Below, one piece after another: positions 33,696 to 39,473 of a stretch of 64,000 bases of DNA. Position 1 is the first letter of the stretch, and each line of letters begins with the position of its first letter. The position numbers were made by a program, and so were the translations under genes. Location: positions 576,001-640,000 of the forward strand of contig CAWCKY010000007.1 of NCBI GenBank assembly GCA_963796275.1, in the 5' to 3' direction. Source of the DNA: an uncultured Acidobacteriota bacterium. GTDB lineage: Bacteria > Acidobacteriota > Blastocatellia > RBC074. Under the pieces are notes generated by a model. The model made no database searches. It saw only the letters and a list, made by a program, of their open reading frames with translations, and was not told the origin of the DNA.

Positions 33696-33873
33696 TTCGC
33701 CGCGTAGCGGCGGTTGATTGTAGCCGTGGGTTTTAACCCACGGAAGCTTGAATGATATTCCCGCGTCGCGTTAGCGACGCCTGAATTCAACCGTCGCTGA
33801 CGCGACGTGAAAAAATCTACCGCCACCGTGGGTTAAAACCCACGGCTACAATCAACCGCCGCTACGCGGCGAA
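33696..33873. repeat. Palindromic REP/MITE-like element with ~48-bp terminal inverted repeats
   Basis: TTCGCCGCGTAGCGGCGGTTGATTGTAGCCGTGGGTTTTAACCCACGG … exact reverse complement; inner CGTCGCGT hairpins. Confidence 0.85.
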
Positions 33874-34722
33874 GAGGCTGAGCAGTTACGTTCAGTTTTT
33901 AGTTTTTAGCTGCGCTGTCTCGATCAACAACTGAAAACTAAAAACTAAAAAACTAACAACAAAGCCTTACGTGGGTTAAAACCGGTTAAAACCCACGGCT
34001 ACAATCAACCGCCGCTACGCGGCGAAGAGGCTGAGCAGTTACGTTCAGTTTTTAGTTTTTAGCTGCGCTGTCTCGATCAACAACTGAAAACTAAAAACTA
34101 AAAAACTAACAACAAAGCCTTACGTGGGTTAAAACCGGTTAAAACCCACGGCTACAATCAACCGCCGCTACGCGGCGAAGAGGCTGAGCAGTTACGTTCA
34201 GTTTTTAGTATTTAGCTGCGCTGTCTCGATCAGCAACTGAAAACTAAAAACTAAAAAACTAACAACAAAGCCTTACGTGGGTTAAAACCGGTTAAAACCC
34301 ACGGCTACAATCAACCGCCGCTAACGCGGCGAAGAGGCTGAGCAGTTACGTTCAGTTTTTAGTTTTTAGCTGCGCTGTCTCGATCAACAACTGAAAACTA
34401 AAAACTAAAAAACTAACAACAAAGCCTTACGTGGGTTAAAACTGTTAAAACCCACGGCTACAATCAACCGCCGCTAACGCGGCGAAGAGGCTGAGCAGTT
34501 ACGTTCAGTTTTTAGTTTTTAGCTGCGCTGTCTCGATCAACAACTGAAAACTAAAAACTAAAAAACTAACAACAAAGCCTTACGTGGGTTAAAACCGGTT
34601 AAAACCCACGGCTACAATCAACCGCCGCTACGCGGCGAAGAGGCTGAGCAGTTACGTTCAGTTTTTAGTATTTAGCTGCGCTGTCTCGATCAGCAACTGA
34701 AAACTAAAAACTGAAAACTAGT
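33826..34722. repeat. Tandem array of six 153-154-bp composite units
   Basis: GAAGAGGCTGAGCAGTTACG recurs at 33871, 34024, 34177, 34331, 34484 and 34637; no unique spacers. Confidence 0.95.
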
Positions 34723-35943: not shown

Positions 35944-36915
35944 ATGAATACGGAACGAGTGATTACTAACCAGGCCGATGAGCGAAAACCGCGCGCCGCC
36001 ATTCACTGCCGTGGTCTTAGCAAACGATACAGCGATGTCACGGCTGTCGATGGCCTCGATCTTGAAGTCTACGCCGGCGAGTGCTTCGGATTACTGGGGC
36101 CGAATGGAGCGGGAAAGACTACTACCATCGAGATACTCGAGGGGCTCACTAAACCGGATGCGGGCGAGGTTAAGCTGTTCGAATTGTGCTGGGGCAGCGG
36201 CCACGATCAAAGGCTGCGGGGATGGATCGGCGTGCAGTTACAGCAGACCGAGCTGGCTGATAAGTTAACCGTGGAAGAGACCGTCAAACTCTTTCGCAGC
36301 TTTTATGAGCGCGGTCGCGATGTCGATGAGGTCATCCGCACTGTCGCACTCGAAGAAAAAAGTAAATCCCACGTGGGCAAACTATCAGGAGGGCAGAAAC
36401 AACGAATGGCGATCGCCTGCGCGCTGGTGAGCGATCCCTACCTGCTTTTTCTCGATGAGCCGACAACGGGTCTCGATCCGCAAGCTCGTCTGCAGCTCTG
36501 GGAAGTGATTGAAAAGTTTCGTAAACGCGGAGGCACGACGCTTTTGACGACTCATTACATGGAGGAAGCCGCGCGTTTGTGCGATCGGATAGCGATTATG
36601 GACCACGGGCGCGTTATCGCATTGGGTACCCCGGCTGAGCTGATCGCCTCGCTCGGGGCCGATCAGATCATAGAGATCAAGGGCGACTCGGGCCAGTTGC
36701 ACGAGGAGGAGCTCTCGCAATTGACGGGCGTGCTCGGCGTGCGCGCCAAGGAAGGCGGCTTTCTACTCACCGTATCGCAGATCGGTGAGGCATTGCCGTC
36801 GTTGCTCGCCCAACTCGAAAGGCAGAACGTCAAACTCGATCAACTCACGACTCACCAGGCGACGCTCGAGGATGTCTTTGTCAACCTTACCGGAAGGATG
36901 TTGCGCGATGGATGA
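35944..36915 (+). CDS. ABC-2 exporter ATP-binding protein
   Basis: GPNGAGKT, LSGGQ, LDEPTTGLD. Confidence 0.95.
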   Translation: MNTERVITNQADERKPRAAIHCRGLSKRYSDVTAVDGLDLEVYAGECFGLLGPNGAGKTTTIEILEGLTKPDAGEVKLFELCWGSGHDQRLRGWIGVQLQQTELADKLTVEETVKLFRSFYERGRDVDEVIRTVALEEKSKSHVGKLSGGQKQRMAIACALVSDPYLLFLDEPTTGLDPQARLQLWEVIEKFRKRGGTTLLTTHYMEEAARLCDRIAIMDHGRVIALGTPAELIASLGADQIIEIKGDSGQLHEEELSQLTGVLGVRAKEGGFLLTVSQIGEALPSLLAQLERQNVKLDQLTTHQATLEDVFVNLTGRMLRDG

Positions 36916-38050
36916 TATCCAGCAGAGAATTTTAAACAACGATGTGAGGGATGAGGAGTCCGAAAGCGCGGACGTAGCGCCGGCGCCGAAAGGCAATAAA
37001 CATCCCATCCTTGAATTGACTCTGGCGCGGATGCGCGAGTTCTGGCGGCAGCCCACGGCGATCTTCTGGGTATTCGGGTTTCCCGTGCTGCTCGCTTTCG
37101 TGCTCGGCATTGCGTTCCGTGATTCTGGGCCCGAGAAGATGCAAGTCGCGGTGGAAAACAGCGCGGCCAACGCGCCCGACATCGCGGCCACTATCGCCCG
37201 CGCGCCGGAGCTTCAACCCATCGTCCTGTCGCCTGCCGAAGCAACCAACGCGCTGCGCACGGGCCAGGTCGCTCTGGTGGTTCGGTGGGGCGAACTCGAA
37301 GGCCGTGGATCTCAGACGGGCTTCGACTACCGGTTCGATCCGACGCGCCCCGAAAGCCGAGTAGCCCGGCTGGCCGTCGATGACGTGCTCCAGCGGGCCG
37401 CCGGCCGCGTGGATGCTACAGTTGCGCGCGATCAAGTTTTCAATGAACCGGGAGCTCGATACATCGATTTTCTGATACCCGGTTTGGTCGGATTGAACTT
37501 GATGAGCAGCGGTTTGTGGGGGTTGGGGTTCGCCATCGTGCAGGCGCGCACGCAGAGATTGCTCAAGAGATTGGCCGCCACGCCGATGCGGCGCTGGCAT
37601 TATCTCTTATCTTTTGTTCTCTCGCGTTTGATCTTCCTGGTGCTGGAAGTCGCGGCGATTTTCCTGTTCGCATATTTCGTTTTCGATGTGAGAGTGCATG
37701 GCTCCTTGCTTAACGTAACTCTCGTCGCATTGACCGGCTCGTTGGCTTTCTCCGGGATAGGACTGCTCGTGGGCGCGCGCACGAAGACGATTGAAGGCGC
37801 GTCGGGCTTGATGAACCTCGTGATGTTGCCGATGTGGCTGTTGTCGGGCAGTTTCTTTTCCTCTGCGAAATTTCCCGAAGTTCTGCAGCCGTTCATCAAA
37901 GCATTGCCATTGACTGCGCTCAACGACGCATTGCGCGCGGTCATGAACGACGGAGCCGGACTCGCTGCAGTTGGCGTCAACCTCGGCATCCTATTGTTGT
38001 GGGGCGTAGTGAGTTTCATCATCGCCTTGCGTATTTTTCGCTGGCAATAA
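36908..38050 (+). CDS. ABC-2 exporter permease
   Basis: YIDFLIPGL, LKRLAATP, 6-TM ABC-2 pattern; overlaps the ATPase stop. Confidence 0.92.
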   Translation: MDDIQQRILNNDVRDEESESADVAPAPKGNKHPILELTLARMREFWRQPTAIFWVFGFPVLLAFVLGIAFRDSGPEKMQVAVENSAANAPDIAATIARAPELQPIVLSPAEATNALRTGQVALVVRWGELEGRGSQTGFDYRFDPTRPESRVARLAVDDVLQRAAGRVDATVARDQVFNEPGARYIDFLIPGLVGLNLMSSGLWGLGFAIVQARTQRLLKRLAATPMRRWHYLLSFVLSRLIFLVLEVAAIFLFAYFVFDVRVHGSLLNVTLVALTGSLAFSGIGLLVGARTKTIEGASGLMNLVMLPMWLLSGSFFSSAKFPEVLQPFIKALPLTALNDALRAVMNDGAGLAAVGVNLGILLLWGVVSFIIALRIFRWQ

Positions 38051-38330
38051 CTCCTTTCATAAAAAATACGTAGATTTACCTAGCAAAATTACGCATTTTT
38101 CCTGATACACAAGTCAAAACATCTTGCGTATTATCCACTCATCCTAAGAAGAAAAAAATTCGTGTGAGTGAATAGTAGGCCTGGGATGCTATTCATAAAG
38201 GCTCGTGCCAAGTTGAAAAGGCAGGGCTGCGTGCAGTCCTGCCTACTTTATGAGCGTGTGAATAGCGTGTGAATAGAAGGCAGCTTGGGGAAGGAGAGAG
38301 TTACAAGATTGCGGAATACCGCAATCGGAA

Positions 38331-38511
38331 ATTAGCCGGTGATTCAATTGCATGACAGTAGTTTTGTTGGGGAACTCGTCAGAAAAGTACTTTGGGCCAG
38401 GGAGGCCAAAGCCATTTGGGATTTAGAGGAGAAAATGGTTTTGGTGGTCCAGGTGCATGCCGGTAATGTAAAGGAGGAGCATTACCGGTAGCAGTTGATT
38501 CATCGGCTAAT
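38331..38511 (+). ncRNA. Candidate structured RNA domain A (21-bp closing stem + three arms with GGA/GGAGG loops)
   Basis: ATTAGCCGGTGATTCAATTGC pairs with GCAGTTGATTCATCGGCTAAT (2 G-U, 1 U-U); homologous to domain B with covariation. Confidence 0.65.
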
Positions 38512-38612
38512 ACGAAATTCAGAGGTTCAGTACCTTCGTTTTATGCCGCTTGTGCGATGACCTGAGACAAGGACAGCTGCCGGGAGGGCAAAGTCCTCCC
38601 GGCAGTTAAAAG

Positions 38613-38792
38613 ATTAGTCAGTGATTCAACTACCTGATGGTGCTTTTTAGGAAGTCCACCATCATTTAAGCGCGATTGACCAGGGAGGCCAGGCTATTGG
38701 GATTCGAGGGAAAGCGCCTGGTGGTTTGAGCGCTTTGCTGTTAATGAATGGAGGAGCATTTTCAGCGACGGGTAGTTGAATCACCGACTAAT
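38613..38792 (+). ncRNA. Candidate structured RNA domain B (paralog of domain A)
   Basis: ATTAGTCAGTGATTCAACTACC pairs with GGTAGTTGAATCACCGACTAAT; same arm order and same loop motifs as domain A. Confidence 0.65.
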
Positions 38793-38806
38793 GTATCTTT
38801 GATACT

Positions 38807-39473
38807 ATGGTCTTGAGGGCAATCATTGCAGTGTATCTGATCCTAACCGTGTTCGAGGTATTTACCTCAGCTCAGGATAAACGGATCGAAATCTCAGCCA
38901 CGGGTGGTTTCACATTCAGCAATTCAATTCCAGCCGATGAAATCCTGTTTGGAGATGGCAGCCGAATAATCGACGAAGTCGGACCCAAGAGCGGTTATTC
39001 GTGGGGATTTCAGGGAGATTATTCCATCACCAACCGAATAGCGGCGGGCTTCCTCTGGAACCGGCAGCAGAGCAGACTCAGGTTCGGATTCATTTTCTAT
39101 GACAGTATCGATTTCACCGATATGACGATCGACAACTATCACGGAGTTGTCACCTACCACTTCGCTGACAGGGATGCGAATTTTCGCCCTTTCGTCTTCG
39201 GCGGCTTTGGCGCAACCCGGTACGCTCCGAGCACCATTGGGACTATCGAATTTGCCGACGAGTTAGAATACTCAACTACCTGGGGCGGCGGTCTCAAGTT
39301 TTATCCGGCGTCAAAAGTCGGTTTCAAGCTAGGCGTACGTTGGACTCCGACTCATATCAGGATCTGACACATCCGGGATCTGGTGCAACCCACGCTTCGG
39401 CTGCTGGCTCATCAACCCGTCAGTATACTCGAATCAGGTAGAACTCGGCGCAGGCATACTCTTTCGTTTTTAA
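38807..39473 (+). CDS. Outer-membrane beta-barrel protein, frameshifted near 39360
   Basis: Signal peptide and amphipathic strands. Removing one G at 39360-39361 extends the protein to SDTSGIWCNPRFGCWLINPSVYSNQVELGAGILFRF*, a typical barrel C-terminus ending in Phe. Confidence 0.8.

What the first reader, a model, noticed from the sequence alone, without database searches (positions are those of the whole stretch)
38331..38792. Twin ~180-nt cloverleaf RNA domains displaying conserved GGA/GGAGG motifs: candidate novel ncRNA system
Seen: two homologous units (A 38331-38511, B 38613-38792) in an ORF-free region share one architecture. (1) A 21-22-bp closing stem with compensatory changes (C-G to U-A at pair 6, G-C to A-U at pair 20, G-U to G-C, U-G to C-G). 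(2) Arm 1 has a different stem sequence in each copy but GGAA next to the loop. (3) Arm 2 carries an invariant unpaired CA-GGGAGG-CCA bulge and a GGGAUU..GAGG(G)A loop on stems of different sequence (CCAAAGCCAUUU/AAAUGGUUUUGG vs CCAGGC/GCCUGG). (4) Arm 3 has an AAUG…GGAGGAG-CAUU loop. Stems vary while loops are conserved, and most wobble pairs fit the + strand. Established: loop-displayed GGA is what CsrA/RsmA binds in CsrB/RsmY/RsmZ, and GGAGG is the Shine-Dalgarno core. Inference: a multivalent protein sponge (Csr-like, which I do not know from Acidobacteria), an anti-SD/ribosome decoy, or a tandem cis-regulator of the barrel gene that starts 14 nt downstream without an obvious SD. I do not recognise it as a known Rfam family.
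Basis: partly seen in the sequence, partly recalled or inferred. Interest (0 to 1): 0.85.

Follow-up and report, generated by a model that had tools for sequence, protein, structure and literature searches.

The report
Conserved cloverleaf RNA repeat with REP-like ends
Two neighbouring 180-base elements fold into the same four-armed shape, belong to a small repeat family that is kept far better than the genes around it and turns up in soil RNA libraries, and carry the end sequence of the genome's transposase-linked palindromic repeats, so they look like a new structured RNA built on a selfish-repeat stem, with no sign of the proposed CsrA partner.

Summary
A (38331-38511) and B (38613-38792) are homologous four-way junctions with very low folding energies (z -9.3 and -6.6) and real compensatory changes. 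No Rfam family matches.

They belong to a small, lineage-restricted family:
- four good copies, one divergent and one decayed copy in this 9.46-Mb genome;
- one copy in a same-genus genome;
- three metagenome copies, all at the locus orthologous to the copy on contig 3.

On eight sequences, 24 of 60 pairs change on both sides. At the orthologous locus the element is 75-97% identical, against 39-59% for flanking spacers and 52-77% for the adjacent coding sequence. Contigs from three metatranscriptome studies cover A or B.

New point: the 10-14 terminal bases (TTAGCCGGTG) match the REP units that flank an IS200-type Y1 transposase gene in this genome. The same ends bound a much larger REPIN-like class in Planctomycetota, Verrucomicrobiota and Acidobacteriota, whose interiors are different and symmetric.

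No csrA or Ro/TROVE gene was found, so the CsrA-sponge reading is not supported.

Best reading: a REP-derived, strand-specific structured RNA module in mRNA leaders that displays Shine-Dalgarno-like GGAGG loops. Its function is unproven.

The parts
38331..38511 (+). Unit A, whole four-way-junction element (181 nt)
   Evidence: R1 180.2 bits on +, 24.5 on -
38331..38351 (+). A, closing stem P1, 5' strand (pairs with 38491-38511). It starts with ATTAGCCGGTG, which is the REP tag plus stem base.
38353..38381 (+). A, Arm 1 hairpin with loop UUGGGGAA
38387..38456 (+). A, Arm 2: outer stem, 6-nt purine bulge AGGGAG (38399-38404), inner 13-bp stem, 15-nt loop GGGAUUUAGAGGAGA (38418-38432)
38458..38490 (+). 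A, Arm 3 hairpin with GGAGGAG at 38474-38480 in the loop
38491..38511 (+). A, P1 3' strand, ending in CGGCTAAT
38576..38607 (+). G+C-rich hairpin in the 101-nt spacer between A and B. It has no U tract and was not called a terminator.
38613..38792 (+). Unit B, whole element (180 nt): P1 38613-38635 / 38770-38792, Arm 1 38636-38663, Arm 2 38669-38734, Arm 3 38735-38768
   Evidence: R1 151.8 bits on +, 37.3 on -
38066..38330 (+). Leader upstream of A. The part 38066-38177 lies on the same metatranscriptome contig as the first 83 nt of A. It holds a promoter-like site at 38106-38134.
38807..39367 (+). Downstream gene: 186-aa signal-peptide protein with a weak outer-membrane beta-barrel match. It starts 14 nt after B, and no GGAGG-type Shine-Dalgarno sequence lies in those 14 nt.
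   Evidence: an RNA-library contig joins B to a homologous gene start
36785..38050 (+). Upstream gene: ABC-2 type transporter permease, same strand

Best explanation
A and B are two tandem copies of a small, lineage-restricted family of ~180-nt structured RNA elements.

Each copy has three parts:
- a 19-23-bp closing stem whose outer 10-14 nt (GAAA-TTAG-CCGGTG) are the tag and stem base of the genome's REP units, which flank an IS200-type Y1 transposase;
- an interior that, unlike the symmetric interior of a REPIN, is an asymmetric three-arm domain whose stems are kept by compensatory change;
- purine-rich loops that look like Shine-Dalgarno sequences (GGGAGG, GGGAUU..GAGG, GGAGGAG).

I read it as a REP-hairpin derivative taken over for an RNA-level role. 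It is transcribed on the + strand within mRNA leaders or intercistronic regions, where it forms a stable module.

Inferred, not shown: the long P1 duplex is a processing or protection site, and the exposed GGAGG loops dock the CCUCC end of 16S rRNA, or an unknown protein, near the start of the next gene. Here that gene is the barrel gene, which has no Shine-Dalgarno sequence.
For: Shown:
- Fold strength.
- Covariation on 8 sequences: 91.3% of cells paired against 27-41% when the partner is slid; 24 of 60 pairs change on both sides; 0 of 500 shuffles reach any measure.
- Strand asymmetry: 117-192 bits on +, 24-42 bits on -; 57 G to 27 C; GGAG 4 times, CTCC 0 times in A.
- Purifying selection at the orthologous locus in four organisms: element 74.5-96.8% identical, spacers 38.8-59.3%, adjacent CDS 52-77%.
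- RNA-library contigs from three studies cover A (160-nt contig at 38340-38498; 337-nt contig from 38066 into A) or B (265-nt contig from 38627 into a homologous gene start).
- Five of 6 loci lie between genes on the same strand as the element. At the sixth (L017) the right-hand neighbour is divergent.
- REP link: ATTAGCCGGTG occurs 7 times in 9.46 Mb, 3 times at cloverleaf copies and 4 times at REP units. TTAGCCGGTGGT..ACCACCGG units flank the Y1 transposase at contig 1, 1056796-1057131, in inverted orientation.
- P1 is constrained in sequence: 8 of 19 pairs never vary and 3 covary, against 5-8 covarying pairs in each of Arms 2 and 3.
- The 16S rRNA ends in CCTCC.
Against: - The family is tiny and narrow: 3 of 87 family genomes (G000 included) matched model R1, and the G057 matches are the general class. 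Only G000 of 151 sampled class genomes matched R2. The covariation therefore rests on 8 related sequences, three of them close to each other.
- Neighbouring genes share no function, which is unlike a typical cis-regulator.
- In two loci the next start codon is 319 and 631 nt away.
- The same-genus copy L017 lacks the GGGAGG bulge and the GGAGGAG loop.
- RNA-library contigs cannot show strand or RNA ends, and cannot exclude DNA carry-over.
- No terminator or SD-sequestering alternative fold was found.
- Nothing tested shows ribosome, protein or RNase binding.
- The REP link rests on 10-14 shared bases. No cloverleaf copy lies beside a Y1 transposase: the nearest is 23.7 kb away and BLAST found no other shared sequence.
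Confidence: 0.5

Rival explanations
1. A purely selfish DNA repeat: a diverged REPIN/MITE-like subfamily moved or maintained by the Y1 (RAYT-like) transposase as folded single-stranded DNA. It would have no RNA function, and the structure would be kept only because the transposase needs a hairpin.
For: - The ends are identical to the REP tag and stem base.
- The genome has 9 Y1_Tnp matches.
- The copies are dispersed and the distribution is patchy.
- The units sit in tandem, as REPs do in clusters.
- P1 is nearly invariant.
- A very large related class with the same ends occurs across several phyla.
- Very high identity of the element between organisms whose coding DNA has diverged (96.8% against 62-68%) could also come from recent spread.
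Against: - The interior is not palindromic and scores about 100 bits better on one strand.
- The interior arms covary while their loops stay fixed. A transposase that reads the tag and stem base does not explain this.
- There are only 4-6 copies per genome.
- I saw no target duplication in the flanks.
- The element sits at the same syntenic site in four organisms.
- No cloverleaf copy lies beside a transposase gene.
- None of 121 general-class elements has this P1, and 119 of 121 have local end hairpins that A and B lack.
Confidence: 0.2
2. A trans-acting small RNA cut out of the transcript. It would bind and titrate a protein or the 30S subunit through its 3-4 exposed GGA/GGAGG loops per unit, so it would work like CsrB/RsmZ but with another partner.
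For: - Six GGA per unit, mostly unpaired.
- The loops are conserved in 7 of 8 sequences.
- A 160-nt RNA-library contig lies wholly inside A.
- Two RNA-library contigs begin 9 and 14 nt inside P1 of A and B, while a DNA contig runs on. This is a weak hint of processing.
Against: - No CsrA and no Ro/TROVE in the genome.
- No promoter or terminator frames a unit.
- One RNA-library contig joins B to the downstream gene start and another joins A to 265 nt of leader.
- The partner is unknown.
Confidence: 0.13
3. A tandem riboswitch-like, ligand-sensing leader that controls the barrel gene.
For: - A complex four-way junction with conserved unpaired bases.
- Tandem arrangement.
- The element lies 14-98 nt upstream of a start codon at the window locus, the contig-3 locus and its three orthologues, and the decayed contig-1 copy. 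At the same-genus copy L017 the nearest ORF starts 43 nt downstream but has no family support.
Against: - The downstream genes are unrelated: a weak beta-barrel match, Ysc84, amidohydrolase, DUF308, SBF.
- No expression platform.
- The long, sequence-conserved P1 shared with REPs is not a riboswitch trait.
- No Rfam match.
Confidence: 0.05

Closest known systems
REP / REPIN elements with their RAYT (IS200-type Y1 transposase); GTAG-tagged palindromic repeats (Di Nocera et al. 2013, PMC3733652, passages read)
   Same: - A four-base tag (TTAG here, against GTAG) sits directly before a G+C-rich stem. The tag and stem base are identical to the REPs that flank a Y1 transposase in the same genome.
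- The elements are intergenic, dispersed, sometimes tandem, and the ends form a long inverted repeat.
   Different: - There is no short local palindrome at either end.
- The interior is a strand-specific three-arm domain with conserved loops rather than a symmetric hairpin.
- Copy number is very low.
- The position is conserved across species.
- No copy lies beside the transposase.
CsrB / RsmY / RsmZ sponges of CsrA
   Same: Several GGA motifs are displayed in loops of a multi-hairpin RNA. The units are repeated.
   Different: - No csrA gene was found and there is no Rfam match.
- The motifs are GGAGG-type in large loops or a bulge, not A(N)GGA in small hairpins.
- A long closing stem encloses the hairpins.
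- The element is embedded in mRNA leaders.
ERIC / Correia-type transcribed palindromic repeats (recalled, not tested here)
   Same: These are 100-200-nt inverted-repeat elements that are co-transcribed with neighbouring genes. Their long duplex can be a substrate for RNase III and can alter mRNA stability.
   Different: Those elements are essentially simple imperfect palindromes in high copy number with TA duplications. This family has a branched, asymmetric interior and shows no duplication.
Acido-Lenti-1 RNA motif (RF01687)
   Same: It occurs in the same window (33698-33743 on -, 33826-33871 on +). It also has a GTAG-tagged hairpin, and near-threshold copies also flank a Y1 transposase in this genome.
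   Different: It is 46 nt long, with two simple hairpins and a different sequence. It does not match A or B.

Membership tests
CsrB/Rsm-type CsrA sponge | Cognate CsrA/RsmA protein encoded in the genome | tested here: not met
   PF02599: 0 matches in G000 (94.7% complete). Control genomes matched in 3 of 14.
CsrB/Rsm-type CsrA sponge | Many GGA motifs exposed in hairpin loops | tested here: met
   6-8 GGA per unit, mostly in predicted loops or the bulge.
CsrB/Rsm-type CsrA sponge | Match to an Rfam Csr/Rsm model | tested here: not met
   No such match at gathering score or at E<=10.
REP/REPIN (RAYT-associated) | GTAG-like tag followed by the stem, shared with repeats that flank a Y1 transposase gene | tested here: met
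   TTAGCCGGTG lies at both ends of A, C3 and C4. The same 10-mer starts the REPs on both sides of the Y1 transposase at contig 1, 1056796-1057131; the gene scores 64.5 bits for NF033573.
REP/REPIN (RAYT-associated) | Unit is a short (20-40 nt) palindrome; a REPIN is two such units inverted, alike on both strands | tested here: not met
   A and B have no local end hairpin, whereas 119 of 121 general-class elements do. CM scores are 117-192 bits on + against 24-42 on - for the cloverleaf copies, but about equal on both strands for the general class.
REP/REPIN (RAYT-associated) | High copy number within a genome | tested here: not met
   Four good copies, one divergent and one decayed copy in 9.46 Mb.
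REP/REPIN (RAYT-associated) | Bound or cleaved by the cognate Y1 transposase as single-stranded DNA | not testable with these tools
   Needs a biochemical assay.
MITE | Terminal inverted repeats | tested here: met
   17-22-nt ends, 94-95% complementary.
MITE | Target-site duplication and presence/absence between relatives | tested here: not met
   No direct repeat was seen in the flanks of A, B, C3, C4, L014, L017 or L147-149 on reading them. The element is present at the same syntenic site in 4 of 4 orthologous loci found. Empty sites were not searched for systematically.
Riboswitch / cis-regulatory leader | Consistent class of downstream genes and an expression platform | tested here: not met
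   Downstream genes are unrelated. There are 0 terminator-like sites in 37900-39000.
Bacterial Y RNA (Rsr/Ro partner) | Ro/TROVE protein encoded in the genome | tested here: not met
   PF05731: 0 matches. Controls matched in 2 of 14.
Any Rfam 15 family | Covariance-model match at the curated threshold | tested here: not met

The most novel reading that the evidence does not exclude
A selfish REP hairpin has been turned into a working RNA. The stem that a Y1 transposase reads as DNA now closes a three-arm RNA domain that shows three or four Shine-Dalgarno copies to the ribosome. Single or tandem modules would then act as a 30S docking (standby) platform or decoy that sets translation of the next gene. 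This would be a new class of ribosome-binding leader and a clear case of an ncRNA born from a REP.
Probability: 0.12. Interest if true: 0.8.

Novelty: new variant of a known kind. Interest (0 to 1): 0.55.

Why it matters
Few non-coding RNA families are known from soil Acidobacteria-like genomes, and how new structured RNAs arise is poorly documented.

This family has good covariation, conservation above that of the neighbouring genes, and traces in RNA libraries. Its closing stem carries the recognition end of a transposase-linked repeat. It may therefore catch the step from selfish palindrome to functional RNA.

The exposed GGAGG loops give a direct, testable hypothesis: binding of 30S or of a protein.

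If it turns out to be only a repeat variant, it still shows that REP-type ends can carry large, strand-specific structured cargo.

Tried and rejected
**CsrA sponge.** Rejected as a membership claim: no PF02599 match.

**Y RNA.** Rejected: no TROVE match.

**Coding.** Rejected: the short ORFs inside A and B are not shared between the two units.

**Intrinsic terminator or attenuator.** None found.

**Rfam.** No family matched. The mir-8186 and FinP rows are chance hits on the spacer hairpin.

**Orthologue of the window locus.** The barrel protein found nothing in G059, G060 or G057, so I could not look for an empty site there.

**Wasted search.** The order-level search returned the same 87 genomes as the family-level search and added nothing.

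**Metagenome scans.** The first scan, using three conserved loop motifs, found 0. The pattern was too strict: the later hits have CTGGGATT or GTGGGATT where the pattern required TTGGGAYT.

**Genome-collection scan.** Its counts are lower bounds, and records of the window's own genome may have been left out.

**BLAST against the Y1 transposase loci.** BLAST of the cloverleaf copies against 4 kb around each of the 9 Y1 transposase matches gave only 12-nt chance hits.

**RNA-library depths.** In one search the contig depths were about 38-48 over the leader and A, and 2 over coding flanks. These are one figure per contig, and the tool says they cannot rank regions, so I do not use them as evidence. 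Stretches without RNA cover prove nothing.

**Sequencing-run shares.** The shares were all small (0.05-0.14), so I name no habitat from them.

**Literature.** A search for the end motif found 27 papers, and none of the 10 listed was relevant. I saw no paper that links Acido-Lenti-1 to REPs, but only the listings and passages were seen. The supplementary text of PMC2864571 that discusses that motif is closed.

**Taxonomy.** The phylum of the window's genome was not checked.

Full report
**1. The observation**

The sequence at 38331-38792 is as described. Units A (38331-38511) and B (38613-38792) align with 79% mean column identity.

On the + strand each folds into a closing stem plus three arms:
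- A: -82.1 kcal/mol, z -9.33.
- B: -74.7 kcal/mol, z -6.58.
- None of 200 dinucleotide shuffles does as well in either case.

The reverse strand of A folds far worse (-51.2). That of B folds slightly worse (-70.4).

So are the identical CCAGGGAGGCCA bulge and the conserved GGGAUU..GAGG and GGAGGAGCAUU loops.

The spacer between the ABC-2 permease gene (36785-38050) and the 186-aa barrel-like gene (38807-39367) holds no ORF shared by both units. Rfam 15 has no family for it.

**2. A small repeat family**

BLAST and a covariance model built from four copies (R1) find the following in the window's own 9.46-Mb genome:
- A and B;
- a copy on contig 3 (783398-783584, +);
- a copy on contig 4 (635339-635516, -);
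- a divergent copy on contig 6 (1464755-1464925, -; 37-45 bits);
- a decayed copy on contig 1 (about 139319-139470).

All full copies fold the same way: -88.8 kcal/mol with z -11.0, and -84.6 with z -7.7.

Outside this genome the family is rare.
- 3 of 87 genomes of the taxonomic family (G000 included) matched R1. One of them, same-genus G060, has a true cloverleaf copy (L017, 123.7 bits with model R2).
- Only G000 among 151 sampled genomes of the class matched R2.
- A metagenome scan keyed only on the two ends of the A/B-type closing stem, with the interior left free, returned three contigs (L147, L148, L149). All three have the same interior.

**3. Structure is under selection**

On the eight-sequence alignment fitted to the model (A6):
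- 91.3% of cells form standard pairs, against 27-41% when the 3' partners are slid by 1-3 columns.
- 24 of 60 pairs show changes on both sides.
- 0 of 500 shuffles reach the observed value on any of five measures.

Arms 2 and 3 carry most of the double changes (5, 8 and 5 pairs in helices 3, 4 and 5). In P1, 8 of 19 pairs never vary. Three of the eight sequences are close relatives, and the alignment is fitted to the model, so this is good but not final evidence.

The three metagenome copies sit at the locus orthologous to the contig-3 copy: DUF937-OmpA gene, then the element, then a Ysc84 gene. Between these four organisms:

| Region | Identity |
|---|---|
| Element | 74.5-96.8% |
| 100 nt upstream of the element | 41.9-47.5% |
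| Spacer down to the start codon | 38.8-59.3% |
| First 600 nt of the downstream gene | 52-77% |

The element is thus the best-conserved stretch of the locus. That speaks for function, or less likely for recent replacement.

**4. Strand and transcription**

The models score the + strand 117-192 bits and the reverse strand 24-42 bits. The units are G-rich (57 G, 27 C in A), with GGAG four times and CTCC never.

Five of six independent loci lie between genes on the same strand as the element. At the sixth (L017) the right-hand neighbour, a YidB-like gene, is divergent.

Distance from the element to the next start codon:
- 14 nt for B;
- 57 nt for the contig-3 copy, and 62-98 nt in its orthologues;
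- about 40 nt for the contig-1 copy;
- 43 nt for L017, to an ORF with no family support;
- 319 nt for the contig-6 copy and 631 nt for the contig-4 copy.

Seven metatranscriptome runs of three studies hold small parts of the stretch. One RNA run from each of those three studies was laid, plus one DNA run, and they gave:
- a 160-nt contig lying wholly inside A (38340-38498, 4 differences);
- a 337-nt contig joining 38066-38177 to 38306-38413;
- a 265-nt contig running from 38627 through B into a homologous gene start;
- a DNA contig of a relative covering the whole region, with both units present.

Contigs cannot show strand or RNA ends and cannot exclude DNA carry-over. This shows presence in RNA libraries, not proof of transcription.

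**5. The ends are REP ends**

A scan of one genome per species for the two 11-nt ends at the right spacing, with the interior free, returned at least 119 stretches. They come from Planctomycetota, Verrucomicrobiota, Acidobacteriota, Binatia and Victivallales.

Their 121 elements share another design:
- ATTAG followed by a local hairpin CCGGTGGT-loop-ACCACCGG at each end (119 of 121);
- two inner G+C-rich hairpins of the GCCCCGGAGGGGC type, in mirror order.

None of the 121 has the A/B-type stem. With R2 the best of the first 100 loci (L019-L118; L119-L137 were not scored) reaches 56 bits, with similar scores on both strands where both matched.

The window's genome also holds this general class. 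ATTAGCCGGTG occurs seven times in the genome: three at cloverleaf copies and four at REP units.

Nine Y1_Tnp matches are present. The 148-aa gene at contig 1, 1056796-1057131, scores 64.5 bits for NF033573, the IS200/IS605 family transposase. Mirror-image modules, each containing a TTAGCCGGTGGT..ACCACCGG unit, lie on both sides of it. This is the arrangement described for REPs and their RAYTs (PMC3733652, passages read).

A's left flank plus end (GAAATTAGCCGGTG) equals the consensus start of these REPs over 14 nt. The cloverleaf family therefore shares the tag and stem base of the genome's REP.

It lacks every other REPIN trait tested: local palindromes, symmetry, high copy number and a neighbouring transposase.

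**6. What it is not**

- No CsrA and no Ro/TROVE in a 94.7%-complete genome.
- No terminator-like site.
- Downstream genes of unrelated function.
- No target duplications on reading the flanks.

**7. Most likely mechanism**

*Shown:* a conserved, strand-specific, branched fold with fixed purine-rich loops. It sits in leaders or intercistronic spacers, appears in RNA libraries and has REP-type ends.

*Inferred:* the family arose from a REP hairpin whose loop grew into a three-arm domain, and it now works as RNA. The near-invariant 19-23-bp P1 would be read by a sequence-specific factor. That factor could be the Y1 transposase on DNA, or a double-strand RNase or binding protein on RNA.

The three or four exposed GGAGG-type loops are complementary to the CCUCC end of the 16S rRNA found in this genome. 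They could dock 30S subunits, or an unknown protein, next to the downstream start. Here that start has no Shine-Dalgarno sequence of its own.

I put 0.5 on "REP-derived structured RNA module acting within mRNAs" and about 0.12 on the specific ribosome-docking or decoy version. The main rival, a purely selfish repeat variant, gets 0.2.

**8. Novelty**

There is no Rfam family. The one literature search on the end motif returned nothing relevant among the 10 listed of 27, and no search was made for the cloverleaf itself.

It is a new variant of known kinds (REP-type repeats and structured leader RNAs), restricted to one soil lineage, with unknown function. Interest is moderate.

Noticed in passing
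window 33698-33743 (-), 33826-33871 (+), and a further similar unit near 33975-34020; own genome contig 4, 611156-612561 (locus L138): The two Acido-Lenti-1 (RF01687) hits form an inverted pair. The same 46-nt units (GTAG tag plus hairpin CCGTGGGTT..AACCCACGG) lie in mirror orientation on both sides of a Y1 transposase gene at contig 4, 611677-612021: 3 units on one side and 4 on the other. They score 31.2 and 28.5 bits against a gathering score of 37. [quoted passage not shown] Here it looks like a REP with its RAYT.
   Followed up: partly
loci L019-L137 (public genome contigs); own genome e.g. contig 7, 649484-649677, and contig 6, 1259002-1259209: A very widespread 140-200-nt REPIN-like element bounded by ATTAGCCGGTGG...CCACCGGCTAAT, with nested GCCCCGGAGGGGC-type hairpins. 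It occurs in Planctomycetota, Verrucomicrobiota, Acidobacteriota, Binatia and Victivallales.
   Followed up: partly
window 38162-38275: The word GTGTGAATAG, or a near copy, occurs three times in the leader upstream of unit A, around a G+C-rich hairpin at about 38219-38250. In a relative's RNA-library contig this middle part (38178-38305) is replaced by 117 other letters, while the flanks are kept.
   Followed up: no
L002:151-1416 (own contig 3) and L017:1668-2819 (G060): A DUF937 / YidB-like domain protein lies next to the element at two different loci, once fused to OmpA on the same strand and once divergent. This may be coincidence.
   Followed up: no
L014, just downstream of the contig-6 copy on its own strand: A run GGAGGAGGAGGAGAGGGG directly follows the divergent contig-6 copy, which adds to the purine-rich theme.
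   Followed up: no
window 33880-34100: Repeated AACTGAAAACTAAAAACTAAAAA-type A/T-rich words flank the Acido-Lenti-1 units, and a ~110-nt block is duplicated (33860-33920 and 34030-34090).
   Followed up: no
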